28,245 nucleotides of DNA from a virus, in UHGV virus genome UHGV-0133447, one strand, 5' to 3'. Position numbers and translations under genes: made by a program. The notes beneath the pieces were generated by a model. The model was not told the origin of the DNA, did not search any database, and worked only from the letters and a program-made list of their open reading frames with translations. This document shows positions 11,022 to 17,335 of the stretch, piece by piece (the first letter of the stretch is position 1; each line of letters opens with the position of its first letter).

Positions 11022-12077
11022 TCAAGCTTTTACAATGACGCCGATACCCATTACCCGATCCAGAAAACGAGCCCACAGCTCTAACTGAGTGCCATATTTC
11101 TTTTCGAACTCTGATGTATTGGCGTGTAATTCATCGTGATGCACTCTGCACAGTGGTATCACGAAGAGATCATGGGCCTTGGTGCCAGTTCCCCCCAGAC
11201 CATTCCCTATTATATGGTGTGGATCGTCTGAAGGTTGCCTACAGCATTCACATGGCTGAGTTTTAACCCAACGTGTGTAAACTTCGCAGGTCCAGCGCCG
11301 GCGCTTTGGGCGGCGCATAAATGATTCGGGGCTGTTCGGATCGACACTAAGCCTCAGAATGGGTTTACTTTCAATCTGAGGTTGCTCAATGAGTACACTG
11401 GCGTCCGCCAGGTCTATGCCCTCGACAAGATCCTGAAGGATTTCACCTGCAGCTAATGACGGGACAATATCGCTATCCTTATAAACGGACAGGAAAGGTT
11501 CCTCAGGCAGTCTTAAGGCCTGTTGCGCCATCGTCTCGGTTATTGCGTCAGCAATGCCGGATTTCACGGCCCACCAGCAGAGCTCCGCCATCGATAATTC
11601 GCGCTCCTTATTGTATCCAAGGCTGATCAACACCCTTTCAATCACCCACTGAACCAGATTCTGATAAGCCAGCTCTGACAACATTTCGGTGGTCTGCTCA
11701 CGTAATTCATTATCACAATGCCAGCAGACAACCATGGCGCCAGGCGGATGCCGCATAGTCACTAATTCATGGTGGTGATAGTGGGAATGCGGGTACTGGC
11801 ACTCTCTGACATGTCGTAGAAGCCAGGCCTCAAGAGCGTTAATTCCACCAGCTGCGTTAATAACCCTCTCATCCCTCATGAAAAAACGCAGAATGTCCAT
11901 TTCTGCAAGCGGCTGACGTGCATCGGCGATCCGCCCAGTGGGCAGTGTTTTCATCTTCTCTGGCTGGCGCTCTATCAGGACACGACCGCCGGTAAAGAGA
12001 GACATCAATTCGCGGCCTGGTTTAAAAAGAACAACGCCCAGGCGCGGAACAATTTCCGGAGTTAGCAATGCCCGCAC
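11022..12077 (-). CDS. DUF968-domain protein (YdfU-like)
   Basis: 351 aa. The C-terminus CECCRQPSDDPHHIIGNGLGGTGTKAHDLFVIPLCRVHHDELH is as I recall for the prophage YdfU family. GTG start with an AGGGGG RBS. Confidence 0.75.
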   Translation of the reverse strand: MRALLTPEIVPRLGVVLFKPGRELMSLFTGGRVLIERQPEKMKTLPTGRIADARQPLAEMDILRFFMRDERVINAAGGINALEAWLLRHVRECQYPHSHYHHHELVTMRHPPGAMVVCWHCDNELREQTTEMLSELAYQNLVQWVIERVLISLGYNKERELSMAELCWWAVKSGIADAITETMAQQALRLPEEPFLSVYKDSDIVPSLAAGEILQDLVEGIDLADASVLIEQPQIESKPILRLSVDPNSPESFMRRPKRRRWTCEVYTRWVKTQPCECCRQPSDDPHHIIGNGLGGTGTKAHDLFVIPLCRVHHDELHANTSEFEKKYGTQLELWARFLDRVMGIGVIVKA

Positions 12078-13538: not shown

Positions 13539-13937
13539 TCAACCTACCACTGAACAAACATCCAGCGTTTTTTTATACGCCGATATGGTGATTTCTACCC
13601 GCCCGCCTTTAACATTCTCACCCCACTCTATAGCCATGCGCTTTACCTGGTTGTCGTCCTCCCAGATACCGGCATAAGTCAAAGCATCAAGAAGTGCCTT
13701 GTTGTAATTGTCCAGGTCACGCCGGCGATAGTCTGGCGGATAGAGAATAATTTCTACAGCTGCTGGCGCGGTAGATGGTTTTGGTATTGCACGCAGTTGC
13801 TCAATGATCGCTGAACGTACTGCATGTTTGAATTTACGGCCGGCTGCGCTGACAAGGTGTTTACCTTTTGCGGGCCCCTTATTTGGGGACCGCCAGTAGG
13901 TGTTCACGCTGGGTGGGAATGGAAGAATAAATTTCAT
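13539..13937 (-). CDS. rusA: Holliday junction resolvase RusA
   Basis: 132 aa. MKFILPFPPSVNTYWR... and DLDNYNKALLDALTYAGIWEDDNQV are canonical RusA motifs. Confidence 0.92.
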   Translation of the reverse strand: MKFILPFPPSVNTYWRSPNKGPAKGKHLVSAAGRKFKHAVRSAIIEQLRAIPKPSTAPAAVEIILYPPDYRRRDLDNYNKALLDALTYAGIWEDDNQVKRMAIEWGENVKGGRVEITISAYKKTLDVCSVVG

Positions 13938-14410
13938 TCTGCCTCCAGCACTATTTTCAACTCAAACGGAACATCTCCTCCGCAATAGCAGAGCGGGCCA
14001 AGGTCAGACATGAGGCTCCACAGGGTCATTGACGTATAGCCATTTTCGTCTGTTATCGGGGGCGAAAAGTCTCCGAAGATCGCCGGGTGCTGGATTCGAT
14101 TCTCTTCGTGCTGGCTTCTCAAGTAACTTAGAGCTTCGGCAGTAAGTTTCACTTTTACGATGCTGTTGAGATTGACCGATATTTCTCTGGCCAACAGCGA
14201 AGAGGTGATACTGATACCGCGAGAAACCCCGCGGGTAATCTTGATGGCCCCTTTTCTCTCCAGCGCCTTGAGGTGCGTTGCTGCTGCATTGGGGGACCGG
14301 CACCCCAGCATGCCGGTCAGTTCGTAAGTTGTAGGCGGAAAACCATGTTTACGCTGATATTCGATCAGGAGGTCAAGGACCTCCTGCTGCCTTAAGGTCA
14401 AGGAAGTCAT
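13934..14410 (-). CDS. LexA-type DNA-binding-domain protein lacking the S24 peptidase domain
   Basis: MTSLTLRQQEVLDLLIEYQRKHGFPPTTYELTGMLGCRSPNAAATHLKALERKGAIKITRGVSRGI resembles the LexA N-terminal wHTH. The roughly 85-aa C-terminus is unrelated to S24. ATGA overlap with the C5-MTase stop. Confidence 0.7.
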   Translation of the reverse strand: MTSLTLRQQEVLDLLIEYQRKHGFPPTTYELTGMLGCRSPNAAATHLKALERKGAIKITRGVSRGISITSSLLAREISVNLNSIVKVKLTAEALSYLRSQHEENRIQHPAIFGDFSPPITDENGYTSMTLWSLMSDLGPLCYCGGDVPFELKIVLEAE

Positions 14411-16389
14411 GCTGCCTGCTCCTCTCTGTTCACGCACATTTCGGGTAAGTTGGCGCGTACCAGCGCTTCGGCGAACGGCGGCGGGACGGCATTGCCACAG
14501 CGCGCGACCTGCTTATCTTTCGCGTATTTCACGCCGCGGTAATCCTGGTCAATGATGTACCACTCCGGAAAGCCCTGCGCCCGATAGAGCTCGTGCGGCT
14601 GCAGCATGCGCATGCCGATATCAACGATGCGGTAAGTCACTCCGCCGATTTCCACCAGCCCGGTGCATTCCTCTCCGCAGTATTCCTGCAGGAACGACAG
14701 CACCTGCTGCGCTCGCTCTTCGTCATAGTCCTCGACCGCCAGAGTCGTTTTAACCTCCCCTACATGCTGGCCACCGGCAGTGATAGTCGGCATCGGCTCG
14801 TCAGTTCGCTGGCCATCGCGGCAGGTTCCGCGCAGCTTAACCAGATGAGAAGCGACTAATGCATGGTGATCGACAGTCGTTACTGAATGCGCTGGCTCAT
14901 CCAGCCCCACGCCAGCGCCCTGATAATTCCCTCCGTAGTGTTTTGCCAGGAACGCACCAACTACAGCATGTTTCCCGCCACCAGCCACAACGGTGCCCAG
15001 CGGCTTATCCAGTCCTGGCACGCGAGGTGCCTGTCCTGGCCGTTCCCCGTATCCCATTTGAATGAGCGTCGGCACAACCAGCTGCGATTTACCTCCGCCG
15101 CCCGCGGTGATTGTTGCGCTAGGCTCATCCGCCCGGTGTCCGATGCTGGCGCCGAACTGCCGGGCGATAACCGGAGCGACGACACAGGCGCGCGATTCTT
15201 TCAGGATGGTGTGAGCGGGTTTATCGAGCGGGCGTGGTTTAGCCTGGTACTCGCTGCCGCCATTGCCAGCCAGGAACGGCGCCAGCTCTGCTTCAACAAT
15301 ACCCAGAGCGTGACCATTCCCGCCCGGGCGTTTTGCGGTACCGGCCGTCACCGTCGGCAACGGATCGGTGACTTCCTGCCCGGTAGCTCCAGTTCGGAAT
15401 TTTGTCAGATGAGGTACCGCAATTGCGTAGCCGTGGGTTTTCGTAATCGTCTGTAGCGGATCGTCCAGCGCCTGTCCCCGGAAACAGTCGTATTTGCCGC
15501 GTGTCGTTGTGTGATTGCACTTCACGATGAACGGCGAAGCGCTTTCGATAACAAAGCGCTGAATGCCGCGGGCAATCCGTTTTAGCGTATTCTCTGCCAG
15601 TGACTTTTTGCGACCGAAGATGCTCGGCGCGGGGATTGACCAGTCTATGCATTCCGCAGCTGTACGCCACGGCTCAAGCTGGCCCGCCAGCACGGCGGCA
15701 GACTTCGGATCCCCGTGCGTGGCTTCCGGCCAGACTATCAGTTTCCCGTCCCGGCGCATCACCATGAAGAACCGCTTACGGATGGTCGGCGCGCCATAAT
15801 CGCAGGCGCGCAGCTCGCGAAAATCGACGACATAACCCAGCCCGGCAATTAAGCGCTTGGCCTGCTCGCTATCCGGTGAAAACTCCAGAAACTCGCAACA
15901 CTCCACCAGTGCAGGATGATCTGCTGGAATACCGGTGGTAAGCATCCCGACAAATGCATTGAAAGTTTCACCGATGCGTGCCGGATCCGGTCGCATTTCT
16001 GCCGCGAGTAACGGACCCCACGTCTTAAACTCTTCGACGTTTTCCAGCATCATGACTCGCGGGCCAACATCCAGCGCCCAACGAATGACGATCCATGCCA
16101 GCCCTCGAATAGCTTTCTCTACTGGTTTAGCACCTTTCGCTTTAGAAAAGTGACGACAGTCAGGCGAGAACCATGCCAGGCCGACAGGCTTGCTACTGGT
16201 AGCGGCTAATGGGGATACATCAAACACACTTTCGCAATAGTGAAGCGTGTCGGGATGGTTAGTGCGGTGCATAGCAACGGCGTTAACATCGTGGTTAATA
16301 GCGATATCAACACTGCGCCCTATTGCCAGTTCAATACCTGTACTGGCTCCACCGCCGCCAGCGAAATTATCGACAATAATCTCACGCAT
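14407..16389 (-). CDS. DNA (cytosine-5) methyltransferase with greatly expanded, internally repeated target-recognition region
   Basis: Motif I DNFAGGGGAS, IV SPDCRHFS, VI MLENV, VIII TIRKRFF, IX LQPHELYRAQGFP and X GNAVPPP. About 375 aa lie between VIII and IX and contain about 7 D-[EDK]-P-x(2,3)-T-[IV] repeats. Confidence 0.92.
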   Translation of the reverse strand: MREIIVDNFAGGGGASTGIELAIGRSVDIAINHDVNAVAMHRTNHPDTLHYCESVFDVSPLAATSSKPVGLAWFSPDCRHFSKAKGAKPVEKAIRGLAWIVIRWALDVGPRVMMLENVEEFKTWGPLLAAEMRPDPARIGETFNAFVGMLTTGIPADHPALVECCEFLEFSPDSEQAKRLIAGLGYVVDFRELRACDYGAPTIRKRFFMVMRRDGKLIVWPEATHGDPKSAAVLAGQLEPWRTAAECIDWSIPAPSIFGRKKSLAENTLKRIARGIQRFVIESASPFIVKCNHTTTRGKYDCFRGQALDDPLQTITKTHGYAIAVPHLTKFRTGATGQEVTDPLPTVTAGTAKRPGGNGHALGIVEAELAPFLAGNGGSEYQAKPRPLDKPAHTILKESRACVVAPVIARQFGASIGHRADEPSATITAGGGGKSQLVVPTLIQMGYGERPGQAPRVPGLDKPLGTVVAGGGKHAVVGAFLAKHYGGNYQGAGVGLDEPAHSVTTVDHHALVASHLVKLRGTCRDGQRTDEPMPTITAGGQHVGEVKTTLAVEDYDEERAQQVLSFLQEYCGEECTGLVEIGGVTYRIVDIGMRMLQPHELYRAQGFPEWYIIDQDYRGVKYAKDKQVARCGNAVPPPFAEALVRANLPEMCVNREEQAA

Positions 16390-17335
16390 GAGCGGTCCCC
16401 CTCATGCTGCCGACCAGCCCACCAGCAACGGTGATGATTTCGCTGGTGGGCACGCGCTCCAGCCACAACTGGTTAATGTGGGCCTTCAGCTTGTTCTGCT
16501 GGGAGAACTCCAGATCCTCTGCGCCTTGTACCTGTCCAAAGACGAGTCCAACTTCCAGTGGCCAGATCCGGGATTCAGGCTCAGCCAATGATGCAACAGC
16601 ATCGGGGATGATCACTTCAGGAGACTGAACTGGCGAAACTGGTGACAGGAATTTTCCTGCAGCAAACTCAGCCAGCGCCATACTTGCGCGCCCTTTTGCT
16701 TCCAGCTCAACGCGATCGATATAGCTAAAATGTTCACCGCGCCAGGTCTTATCAAATACCGCAATGGCCCCGGCAAAGAATGCGCTGGTGGGCTTCTGCT
16801 TTTCGTCGGCCGGCACAAACCACGTTGGGAGATCGAATCCAATACGACCACGAATAAACATGATGTGATCGGCATATTCCGGCCACCATGTTTCACTTGT
16901 TGCTGACTTCACGAGGTAAATGTAACGACCACCCTTTTCACGCTGCTCGGCGGTATAGTTCATAATATGAGTCATGCCAGTGATGGCTTGTTTTTCATGG
17001 TACTGCGAACGGCTATACGGCGGATTAGCAAAGGCCGCTCCTCCGAGTTCTACCAAACGACCAGACCAGTCCTGCGTCAGCGCATTATCTTCAGCGGTAT
17101 ACCATGCCGGACATTTTGTATTGCTGTCGTCTGCAAACAGGTCCAGTACCAGCGGGCCAAACATAGCGTTAACGCCCCAGAACAGCAGATCAGGGGTACG
17201 CCATTGATCCCCGACTTCTTTTAAATAATGCGCACTACGCTGGCGCTGTTCCTCAAGTGCCAGGCAATAAGGGCTGACGGTTTTTGTTAAAGTTTGCTCT
17301 TCTGCGGTCATAGCTTCTTGTACTTCCTGACTCAT
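16382..17335 (-). CDS. Phage-type DNA N6-adenine methyltransferase (Dam, PF05869-like) with C-terminal extension
   Basis: WRTPDLLFWGVNAMFGPLVLDLFAD...FANPPYSRS matches the phage Dam family pattern as I recall it. Overlaps both neighbours. Confidence 0.85.
   Translation of the reverse strand: MSQEVQEAMTAEEQTLTKTVSPYCLALEEQRQRSAHYLKEVGDQWRTPDLLFWGVNAMFGPLVLDLFADDSNTKCPAWYTAEDNALTQDWSGRLVELGGAAFANPPYSRSQYHEKQAITGMTHIMNYTAEQREKGGRYIYLVKSATSETWWPEYADHIMFIRGRIGFDLPTWFVPADEKQKPTSAFFAGAIAVFDKTWRGEHFSYIDRVELEAKGRASMALAEFAAGKFLSPVSPVQSPEVIIPDAVASLAEPESRIWPLEVGLVFGQVQGAEDLEFSQQNKLKAHINQLWLERVPTSEIITVAGGLVGSMRGTAHA

What the first reader, a model, noticed from the sequence alone, without database searches (positions are those of the whole stretch)
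14740..15468. C5 cytosine methyltransferase with about seven tandem TRD-like repeats (candidate multispecific enzyme)
Between motifs VIII and IX lie about 375 aa, against roughly 80-100 in monospecific enzymes as I recall. This region contains seven repeats of a D-[EDK]-P-x(2,3)-T-[IV]-(T/L/V) core, each followed by a hydrophobic strand. The repeats are DDPLQTITKTHGYAIAVPHL, TDPLPTVTAG...ALGIV, LDKPAHTILKESRACVVAPVI, ADEPSATITAGGGGKSQLVVPTLI, LDKPLGTVVAGGGKHAVVGAFL, LDEPAHSVTTVDHHALVASHL and TDEPMPTITAGGQHVGEV. Bacillus phage multispecific MTases (SPR, phi3T, rho11s) are known to carry several tandem TRDs, each recognising a different site. An enterobacterial prophage enzyme with this many modules would give very broad self-protection against restriction.
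Basis: partly seen in the sequence, partly recalled or inferred. Interest (0 to 1): 0.6.

Follow-up and report, generated by a model that had tools for sequence, protein, structure and literature searches.

The report
Phage cytosine methyltransferase with seven recognition-like repeats
A Klebsiella prophage gene encodes a DNA cytosine-5 methyltransferase whose DNA-recognition region is expanded into seven tandem ~35-residue modules; they resemble the swappable target-recognition domains of the classic multispecific Bacillus-phage enzymes, and the gene belongs to a very large, apparently uncharacterised family with 3 to 13 such modules.

Summary
The ORF at 14407..16389 (-) encodes a 660-aa C5-cytosine DNA methyltransferase. 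It has 395 aa between motifs VIII and IX, and that stretch holds seven tandem units of 27-48 aa built on a D-x-P-x-x-T-[IV]-T core. The regex gives 6 hits against 0.0015 expected, and a unit HMM finds all seven.

The multispecific reading is plausible but unproven. In its favour:
- Unit size, spacing and core motif match the TRDs of SPR, phi3T, rho11s and H2.
- Variable-region length follows the same rule: about 95 + 39 aa per unit here, about 88 + 48 aa per TRD in Bacillus.
- Relatives gain, lose and swap whole units in register.
- Every unit is as conserved as the catalytic domain.
- The best BLASTP match to the rho11s enzyme is unit 6 against its terminal TRD.

Against it:
- Unit-to-TRD homology is statistically weak.
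- Two AlphaFold runs left the unit region below pLDDT 50.
- Three unit types (B, C, A) are near-universal, and the smallest members still have three units. Some units may therefore be scaffold, so seven specificities is unlikely.

The family is very large: 3,065 clusters at 50% identity and 117 phage records. I found no description of it. Verdict: a new variant of a known kind, of moderate to high interest. A methylome experiment would decide it.

The parts
14407..16389 (-). ORF of the C5-cytosine DNA methyltransferase (660 aa plus stop codon)
   Evidence: ORF list; Pfam PF00145 E=7.8e-19; phrog_23072 and phrog_116 'DNA methyltransferase'; Foldseek matches to solved C5 MTases
15754..16389 (-). 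N-terminal catalytic part, aa 1-212: motif I FAGGGG (16348-16365), catalytic loop SPDC (16156-16167), ENV (16036-16044), motif VIII GAPTIRKR (15772-15795)
   Evidence: Alignment to 3g7u and DNMT1; AF2 pLDDT mostly above 85; family-wide invariant columns
15478..15753 (-). Constant linker, aa 213-304, between motif VIII and the first unit; it corresponds to the ~95-aa intercept of the length rule
   Evidence: Conserved across the family; regression intercept 95 aa
15382..15477 (-). Unit 1, aa 305-336, core DDPLQTIT, type Q
   Evidence: Unit HMM; type clustering
15238..15381 (-). Unit 2, aa 337-384, core TDPLPTVT with a longer Gly-rich loop, type l; absent from Citrobacter phage phiNP
15142..15237 (-). 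Unit 3, aa 385-416, core DKPAHTIL, a rare type
15022..15141 (-). Unit 4, aa 417-456, core DEPSATITAGGGG, type V; its tail PTLIQMGYGERPGQAPR is conserved across the family
14914..15021 (-). Unit 5, aa 457-492, core DKPLGTVVAGGGK, the near-universal type B; deleted exactly in P0117 and in phiNP
   Evidence: 70% of 271 family proteins carry a copy at least 60% identical; deletions seen
14815..14913 (-). Unit 6, aa 493-525, core DEPAHSVTTVDHH, type O; gives the best BLASTP match to the terminal TRD of the rho11s enzyme
14734..14814 (-). Unit 7, aa 526-552, core DEPMPTITAGGQH, resembles the near-universal type C
14665..14733 (-). Segment of aa 553-575 (EDYDEERAQQVLSFLQEYCGEEC) that occupies the place of the recognition core of the family's terminal unit A
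   Evidence: Alignment of the C-terminal junction; present in 119 of 121 close sequences, the window protein included
14410..14664 (-). C-terminal catalytic part, aa 576-660: motif IX RMLQPHELYRAQGFP (14566-14610) and motif X GNAVPPP (14476-14496)
   Evidence: Alignment to DNMT1, MET1 and 3g7u; AF2 pLDDT about 87-95 for aa 601-650
16382..17335 (-). Upstream neighbour overlapping by 8 nt: a Dam-family N6-adenine DNA methyltransferase (317 aa). With the C5 gene it forms a two-enzyme methylation module
   Evidence: Pfam PF05869 E=1.1e-42; phrog_111; the same pairing in phiNP, F116 and phiC725A

Best explanation
This is an orphan, prophage-encoded DNA cytosine-5 methyltransferase. No restriction gene lies beside it; it sits in the early/replication region next to a Dam-type adenine methyltransferase. 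Its single catalytic domain is interrupted, between motifs VIII and IX, by an array of seven TRD-core-like modules. The most likely mechanism is the one established for the Bacillus phage enzymes SPR, phi3T, rho11s and H2: one catalytic core serves several alternative recognition modules, and each module presents its own Gly-rich recognition loops to the major groove. The enzyme would then methylate several different short sequences and protect replicating phage DNA from several host restriction systems at once. Whole modules are gained, lost and recombined in register between relatives, which would re-assort specificities. Shown here: the enzyme class, the repeat array, its modular evolution, and purifying selection on every unit. 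Inferred: that units bind DNA, and that different units specify different targets. I expect fewer than seven specificities, because some unit types (B and C, and A in other members) look like constant framework.
For: C5 MTase identity. Seven significant units. The experimentally defined multispecific enzymes carry one similar core per TRD, for example GLSPTLTTMGGGHREPKIAV against ADEPSATITAGGGGKSQLVV here. SPR, the 'triple specificity' enzyme (title cited in PMC8936443), has 3 cores, phi3T has 2, and rho11s and H2 have 4, spaced 30-48 aa against 32-47 aa here. Length rule: VIII-to-IX distance = 95.2 + 39.3 x units (r = 0.93, n = 349) against 88.5 + 48.1 x cores in Bacillus. Modular evolution: the 695-aa Klebsiella forms have an extra unit, in two versions, between units 6 and 7; P0117 lacks unit 5; phiNP lacks units 2 and 5; every junction is in register. 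There are 232 distinct unit-type architectures among 271 proteins, for example GEJBKDCA, GEBKDCA, GJBKDCA and PNLBIHCA. Homologue lengths form a ladder with steps of about 35 aa. Every unit is 0.89-0.99 identical across 120 close cluster representatives, against 0.91 for the catalytic domain. The best BLASTP HSP between the window enzyme and the rho11s enzyme is unit 6 against the terminal TRD: 42% identity over 24 aa, pairwise E = 0.005. hhalign puts the unit and Bacillus TRD cores in register. A monospecific enzyme has one such core, DKPSPTITT, just before motif IX. Context: the gene is flanked by phage replication and regulatory genes and a Dam gene, with no endonuclease partner.
Against: Unit-to-TRD homology is not statistically secure: the unit HMM scores 0-3 bits on the Bacillus enzymes, hhalign probability is 14%, and the unit-A profile scores about 4 bits. 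Profile searches of PDB sequences align only the catalytic motifs. AlphaFold2 gave pLDDT below 50 for the whole unit region, both for the window protein and for a minimal three-unit relative with a collinear alignment, so nothing shows that a unit folds as a TRD. Types B, C and A are near-universal, and the smallest members still have X-C-A. That fits a framework of several units forming one recognition domain. The catalytic loop is P-D-C rather than the canonical P-C. I found no methylation data for any family member.
Confidence: 0.5

Rival explanations
1. One extended recognition domain. The units are hairpin-like repeats that pack together into a single enlarged DNA-binding surface. The enzyme then has one target, or a short or relaxed one (a frequent-methylating cytosine counterpart of non-specific phage adenine MTases such as M.EcoGII). 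Adding or removing units tunes affinity, footprint or processivity and does not add discrete specificities.
For: Types B, C and A are near-universal and the minimal members keep three units, X-C-A. The unit 4-5 linker PTLIQTGYGERxGQAPR is at least 90% conserved across the family, which looks structural. At 27-48 aa (family mean about 39) the units are at or below the small end of the TRD sizes I recall from the literature. From my memory of M.HhaI, a canonical TRD uses two Gly-rich loops, which could correspond to two adjacent units.
Against: Whole units are freely lost, gained and replaced between close relatives while the rest stays conserved. The core of unit A is replaced in the entire Klebsiella clade. 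AlphaFold finds no compact fold even with a collinear alignment. Head positions differ sharply between unit types but are conserved within a type, as expected for distinct readers.
Confidence: 0.3
2. Only one unit, or one pair of units, is the working TRD. The others are non-recognition modules: a spacer, an oligomerisation or partner-binding surface, or retained 'pseudo-TRDs' of the kind reported for Bacillus phage enzymes.
For: From memory, inactive pseudo-domains are documented in the Bacillus phage enzymes, where rho11s and H2 have more cores than known specificities (core counts). There is no experimental evidence of multispecificity for this family.
Against: All seven units are at least as conserved as the catalytic domain, so they are not decaying. 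The conserved core residues (P, T, the Gly-rich loop) are kept in every unit.
Confidence: 0.13
3. The protein is not an ordinary DNA 5-methylcytosine writer. It might be catalytically impaired, act on another substrate, or transfer a different group, as in the recently solved DNA cytosine C5-carboxymethyltransferase.
For: The catalytic loop reads S-P-D-C rather than the near-invariant P-C. 8yf3, a C5-carboxymethyltransferase, is among the structural and sequence matches.
Against: All other catalytic motifs are intact: FxGxG, ENV, R-x-R, and motifs IX and X. SPDC is invariant in at least 420 family proteins, so it is a functional family signature and not decay. No cofactor-synthesis gene lies nearby. 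The best matches are ordinary DNA MTases.
Confidence: 0.07

Closest known systems
Multispecific C5-cytosine DNA methyltransferases of temperate Bacillus phages (M.SPRI, M.Phi3TI, M.Rho11sI, M.H2I; also M.BssHII and M.BceSV)
   Same: One catalytic core. An enlarged variable region between motifs VIII and IX made of tandem modules of about 30-50 aa, each with a P/S-x-T-[ILV]-T...G-G core. A phage or prophage origin with no partner endonuclease. Relatives that differ by whole modules. The same linear relation between region length and module number.
   Different: The catalytic core belongs to a different subfamily: BLASTP against the rho11s enzyme finds only short motif-level matches, and the catalytic loop is SPDC against SPCQ/FPCP. 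There are many more modules: 7 here, 8 in most close relatives and up to 13 in the family, against 2-4. Three module types are near-universal. The hosts are mainly Gram-negative. Module-level homology is not demonstrable and there are no functional data.
Monospecific bacterial C5 MTases (M.HhaI, M.HaeIII, Dcm; the prophage CP-933R enzyme 3g7u)
   Same: The same fold and motif order. A single D-K-P-x-P-T-I-T-type core immediately before motif IX in many of them.
   Different: Their variable region is about 100-130 aa with one core. Here it is 395 aa with seven cores, and the core in the canonical position next to motif IX has been replaced.
Non-specific or frequent-methylating phage adenine MTases (M.EcoGII, Hia5 and the like)
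   Same: Orphan, phage-encoded enzymes presumed to give broad protection against restriction (PMC3526280; PMC3299994, listed).
   Different: A different enzyme class (N6-adenine) with no repeat array. Broad protection comes from relaxed specificity, not from multiple recognition modules.

Membership tests
C5-cytosine DNA methyltransferase (Pfam PF00145) | Score above the Pfam gathering threshold, and the conserved fold of the catalytic domain | tested here: met
   68.7 bits against a cut-off of 22; Foldseek probability 1.00 to 3g7u, DNMT1, MET1, M.HaeIII and M.HhaI
C5-cytosine DNA methyltransferase (Pfam PF00145) | Motif I FxGxG, motif VI ENV, motif VIII R-x-R, motif IX R-x-L-x-x-x-E, motif X GN(A/S)V, in the canonical order | tested here: met
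   FAGGGG aa 9-14, ENV aa 116-118, TIRKR aa 202-206, RMLQPHE aa 594-600, GNAV aa 632-635
C5-cytosine DNA methyltransferase (Pfam PF00145) | Motif IV Pro-Cys dipeptide carrying the catalytic cysteine | tested here: inconclusive
   The Cys is present (C78) but is preceded by Asp. S-P-D-C is invariant in at least 420 family proteins, where the Bacillus enzymes have SPCQ/FPCP.
Multispecific C5 MTases of the Bacillus phage type | A single catalytic core with an enlarged variable region between motifs VIII and IX | tested here: met
   395 aa here, against 191-284 aa in phi3T, SPR, rho11s and H2, and 127 aa in a monospecific enzyme
Multispecific C5 MTases of the Bacillus phage type | Several contiguous, non-overlapping TRDs of roughly 40-50 aa, each with a conserved T-[LIV] core | tested here: met
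   Seven units of 27-48 aa with a P-x-x-T-[IV] core. Core spacing is 32-47 aa, against 30-48 aa in the Bacillus enzymes, with 39 against 48 aa per module. This is met at the level of motif and architecture only.
Multispecific C5 MTases of the Bacillus phage type | Modules are homologous to TRDs of known enzymes | tested here: inconclusive
   BLASTP of unit 6 against the rho11s terminal TRD: 42% over 24 aa, pairwise E = 0.005. hhalign puts the cores in register but with probability 14%. HMM scores are 0-4 bits. There are no PDB hits.
Multispecific C5 MTases of the Bacillus phage type | Relatives differ by the presence, absence or exchange of whole modules | tested here: met
Multispecific C5 MTases of the Bacillus phage type | Each TRD independently confers one target specificity: several unrelated motifs are methylated, and deleting one TRD removes one motif | not testable with these tools
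   This needs methylome mapping of the expressed enzyme and of unit-deletion variants. No published data were found.
Multispecific C5 MTases of the Bacillus phage type | Catalytic core closely related to the SPbeta-group enzymes | tested here: not met
   BLASTP against the rho11s enzyme gives only short motif-level HSPs. tblastn with the SPR N-terminal domain and with the window protein recovers differently composed sets of phage records: the first mainly Streptococcus and Bacillus, the second mainly Pseudomonas and Vibrio.
Type II restriction-modification system methyltransferase | An adjacent cognate restriction endonuclease gene | tested here: not met
   The neighbours are Dam, a LexA-like wHTH protein, RusA, an anti-repressor-like regulator, and replication and CII/CI-like genes. 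The only nuclease is a phage HNH (phrog_96) about 2.3 kb away.

The most novel reading that the evidence does not exclude
This gene represents a very large, overlooked family of phage and prophage C5 methyltransferases (3,065 clusters at 50% identity, in Proteobacteria, Firmicutes and Verrucomicrobia and in phages of cyanobacteria and haloarchaea). In this reading 3 to 13 miniature recognition cassettes of about 35 aa are strung on one catalytic core. Each variable cassette reads a different short DNA sequence, and in-register recombination between cassettes re-assorts specificities. That would be a natural, hot-swappable multi-target epigenetic writer with far more specificities per enzyme than the 2-5 known from Bacillus phages.
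Probability: 0.35. Interest if true: 0.8.

Novelty: new variant of a known kind. Interest (0 to 1): 0.6.

Why it matters
Multispecific m5C methyltransferases are a textbook curiosity, and in the literature I could search they are known only from a handful of Bacillus phages and prophages. If this family works the same way, several things follow:
- The strategy would be widespread among phages of Gram-negative pathogens (Klebsiella, E. coli, Citrobacter, Pseudomonas, Vibrio, Burkholderia).
- Each enzyme could defeat many restriction systems at once, which matters for phage therapy host range and for prophage-driven changes of bacterial methylomes.
- m5C is poorly detected by routine SMRT methylome surveys, which would explain why the family went unnoticed.
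- The natural series of variants differing by single ~35-aa units offers a ready-made map of recognition code to sequence, and a scaffold for engineering programmable cytosine methyltransferases.
- It would also give a tractable system for a question still open for the multispecific enzymes: how one catalytic domain works with alternative recognition modules.

Tried and rejected
1. AlphaFold2 on the window protein with a 90-sequence family alignment. The core was confident but the unit region was below pLDDT 50.
2. AlphaFold2 on a minimal three-unit relative (P0391) with a collinear 97-sequence alignment, to remove repeat-register ambiguity. The result was the same.
4. A unit profile against PDB sequences, and a full-length minimal-member profile against the PDB. 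No TRD-level alignment came out. There was one non-significant look-alike in 3g7u (ESWRTIKKDRKGGFY).
5. The unit HMM against the Bacillus enzymes, hhalign of units against Bacillus TRDs, and a unit-A-to-motif-IX profile. Cores aligned in register but with insignificant scores. My regex for building the unit-A profile caught only 10 sequences, so that profile was thin.
6. DNA-level repeats: none. A recent tandem duplication or slippage is rejected.
7. Six literature searches and targeted reading. No description or methylome of this family was found. The two key Trautner-lab papers (PMC450048, PMC1171429) are not held, so TRD sizes and pseudo-TRDs are quoted from memory.
8. The idea that the enzyme is part of an R-M system is rejected on gene context.
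9. The idea that some units are decaying pseudo-modules is rejected for the Klebsiella clade on conservation.
Full report
**What is there.**

The finding lies inside a 660-aa ORF on the minus strand, 14407..16389.

The protein is a C5-cytosine DNA methyltransferase:
- Pfam PF00145 at E = 7.8e-19, and PHROG families annotated as DNA methyltransferase.
- Motif-level alignment to the prophage CP-933R enzyme 3g7u and to DNMT1/MET1.
- A confidently modelled catalytic core that Foldseek matches to 3g7u, DNMT1, MET1, M.HaeIII and M.HhaI.

The window is a Klebsiella prophage. The gene is 96% identical at DNA level to Klebsiella phage Kp4866-6, and the close protein homologues come from Klebsiella and Raoultella.

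The expectation from 20,000 shuffles is 0.0015. A seventh variant copy reads TDPLPTVT.
- The seven units align to one pattern: a Gly/Gln-containing lead-in, D-x-P-x-x-T-[IV]-T, a Gly-rich loop of variable length, then a hydrophobic strand h-x-h-V-x-x-x-L and another Gly-rich turn.
- A unit HMM iterated on 271 relatives recovers exactly seven units, with E-values from 1.5e-14 to 4.7e-6.
- The units are only 21-52% identical to each other and leave no trace at DNA level. They are ancient duplications.
- Motif VIII to motif IX spans 395 aa. This compares with 127 aa in a monospecific enzyme whose sequence is printed in PMC11954522 and 191-284 aa in the classic multispecific enzymes.

**It is one member of a very large family.**

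- An exhaustive search with the insert alone found 3,065 clusters at 50% identity, 549 of them at E ≤ 1e-30, with lengths from about 350 to 1,200 aa.
- Members occur in Burkholderia, Bordetella, Herbaspirillum, Dickeya, Sodalis, Paenibacillus, Brevibacillus, Cohnella and Terrimicrobium.
- They are also in 117 phage records, including Pseudomonas F116, Pectobacterium ZF40, Citrobacter phiNP, Rhodobacter RcapNL, and Vibrio, Aeromonas, Nostoc and Halobacterium phages.
- All are annotated only as "DNA cytosine methyltransferase".
- Unit counts range from 3 to 13. The variable region grows linearly with unit number: VIII-to-IX distance = 95.2 + 39.3 × units (r = 0.93, n = 349).
- Among Vibrio-type homologues the lengths form a ladder of roughly 462-475, 498-513 and 530-553 aa, for 3, 4 and 5 units.

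**Units behave as modules.**

Among Klebsiella homologues at 84-98% identity:
- Most (111 of 120) have eight units. The extra unit sits between units 6 and 7 and comes in two different versions.
- P0117 lacks exactly unit 5.

Citrobacter phiNP Met, at 65% identity, lacks units 2 and 5.

Every junction is in register, within the conserved hydrophobic strand. That indicates recombination between neighbouring units.

I clustered 2,111 units into types. This gave 232 different architectures among 271 proteins. Examples are GEJBKDCA, GEBKDCA, GJBKDCA, GEJnTKDCA, PNLBIHCA and QMJBUaHCA, which differ by single-unit presence, absence or exchange.

Across the Klebsiella clade every unit is at least as conserved as the catalytic domain (0.89-0.99 against 0.91). 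None looks like a decaying pseudo-module.

**Comparison with the real multispecific enzymes.**

I fetched the original records for SPR, rho11s, H2 and phi3T and translated them.

- Each TRD has a core of the same kind, for example GLSPTLTTMGGGHREPKIAV, GIATTLTSQSVGG and DEPAFTVNTIDRHGVA.
- SPR, the "triple specificity" enzyme (title cited in PMC8936443), has three cores. phi3T has two, and rho11s and H2 have four. The cores are spaced 30-48 aa apart, against 32-47 aa in the window protein.
- Their variable region obeys nearly the same rule as this family: 88.5 + 48.1 × cores.
- In a BLASTP of the window protein against the rho11s enzyme, the top-scoring segment is not a catalytic motif. It is unit 6 (DEPAHSVTTVDHHALVASHLVKLR) against the terminal TRD (DEPAFTVNTIDRHGVAIGEYPKYR), at 42% identity and pairwise E = 0.005.
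- hhalign of a unit profile against the Bacillus TRDs puts the cores in register.
- The family's terminal unit A aligns in register with the terminal Bacillus TRD and with the single DKPSPTITT core of a monospecific enzyme. In each case the core lies just upstream of motif IX.

1. The unit-to-TRD similarities are short and statistically weak: 0-4 bits for HMMs and 14% hhalign probability. Profile searches of PDB sequences align only the catalytic blocks.
2. AlphaFold2 left the whole unit region below pLDDT 50 in the window protein. It did so again in a minimal three-unit relative, for which I built a collinear alignment specifically to avoid repeat-register noise.
3. Three unit types are near-universal:
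 - A is terminal, EPLHTVTTKDRFGLVTV, directly before IVDIGMRML.
 - C is penultimate.
 - B is in the middle and is preceded by the conserved PTLIQTGYGERxGQAPR.

 The smallest members still have X-C-A. Some units may therefore be a constant framework rather than independent readers. From my memory of M.HhaI, a canonical TRD uses two Gly-rich loops (residues 233-240 and 250-257), so a functional reader could span two adjacent units.
4. I found no methylation data for any member. The accessible literature lists multispecific m5C enzymes only for Bacillus phages and prophages: SPR, phi3T, rho11s, H2, BssHII and M.BceSV.

**Peculiarities of this gene.**

- The recognition core of unit A is replaced in the window protein by an unrelated, equal-length acidic segment, EDYDEERAQQVLSFLQEYCGEEC (aa 553-575). 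The same replacement is found in 118 of the 120 close homologues, while the following strand and motif IX are retained. The unit that sits in the canonical TRD position is therefore dispensable in this clade, which itself argues for modularity.
- The catalytic loop is S-P-D-C-[KR]-H-F-S-K-A-K-G throughout the family, in place of the canonical P-C.

**Context and likely function.**

- The gene overlaps, by 8 nt, the end of an upstream Dam-family N6-adenine methyltransferase gene (Pfam PF05869, E = 1e-42).
- Downstream come a LexA-type wHTH protein, RusA, an anti-repressor-like regulator and an HNH endonuclease. Upstream are replication-initiator, CII-like and CI-like genes.
- There is no cognate endonuclease, so this is an orphan phage methyltransferase.
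- The pairing of an adenine MTase with the multi-unit C5 MTase recurs in phiNP, F116 and phiC725A.

The most economical reading is an anti-restriction methylation module. It would be expressed with the early or replication genes and would pre-methylate progeny DNA at many sites.

**Verdict.**

- Observation: confirmed.
- Interpretation: partly supported.
- Confidence that the enzyme is multispecific through different units: about 0.5.
- One extended recognition domain with a single or relaxed specificity: about 0.3.
- Mostly non-recognition units: about 0.13.
- Not an ordinary 5mC writer: about 0.07.
- Seven independent specificities is unlikely.

The architecture is a new variant of a known kind, and the family is large and apparently uncharacterised. 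A single methylome experiment on the cloned gene and its natural unit-deletion variants would be decisive.

Noticed in passing
window 16156-16167 (aa 75-78): The catalytic loop reads S-P-D-C rather than the near-invariant Pro-Cys of C5 MTases. SPDC[KR]HFSKAKG is conserved in at least 420 family proteins, while the Bacillus enzymes have SPCQ/FPCP. Whether the inserted Asp changes the chemistry or the geometry of the loop is unknown.
   Followed up: partly
window 14665-14733 (aa 553-575): The core of the family's terminal unit A, which sits in the canonical TRD position next to motif IX, is replaced in the window protein and 118 of its 120 close homologues by an unrelated acidic segment of equal length that is predicted to be partly helical. 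It is the least conserved part of the protein (identity 0.82).
   Followed up: partly
window 16382-17335 (-): The adjacent Dam-family adenine MTase (317 aa) has about 100 extra C-terminal residues beyond the Pfam Dam domain (aa 36-216). It also matches a PHROG annotated as PAPS reductase (profile positions 280-490 of 495), which suggests that PAPS-reductase-Dam fusions exist in other phages.
   Followed up: no
window 13934-14437 (-) and 14407-16389 (-): phrog_29443 (273 positions) matches the N-terminal 155 aa of the C5 MTase with its first half, and aa 39-167 of the downstream LexA-wHTH protein with its second half. This implies that some phages carry a deletion fusing the two genes and removing most of the MTase. 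Enterobacteria phage mEp237 keeps only the last ~119 codons of the MTase (H76).
   Followed up: no
window 14001-16000: The MTase gene has a higher G+C content (0.565-0.596) than its surroundings (about 0.49-0.53). This could reflect its Gly/Ala/Pro-rich repeats or a foreign origin.
   Followed up: no
L008 (Pseudomonas phage F116, NC_006552 5409-7991): F116 carries three methyltransferase genes in a row: F116p11 (DNA MTase), F116p10 (an 8-unit C5 MTase of this family, 687 aa) and F116p09 (a class I SAM-dependent MTase). This is a larger methylation cassette than the one in the window.
   Followed up: no
window 11022-12077 (-): A phage HNH endonuclease (phrog_96, E = 1e-150) lies about 2.3 kb downstream of the MTase. 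It is not adjacent and is of the common phage HNH type, so I did not treat it as a restriction partner.
   Followed up: no
Family-wide (alignment A3; window aa 439-456): The linker before unit 5, PTLIQ(T/M)GYGERxGQAPR, is at least 90% conserved across phyla, more so than most unit cores. This suggests a specific structural or catalytic-domain-docking role that no explanation here accounts for.
   Followed up: partly
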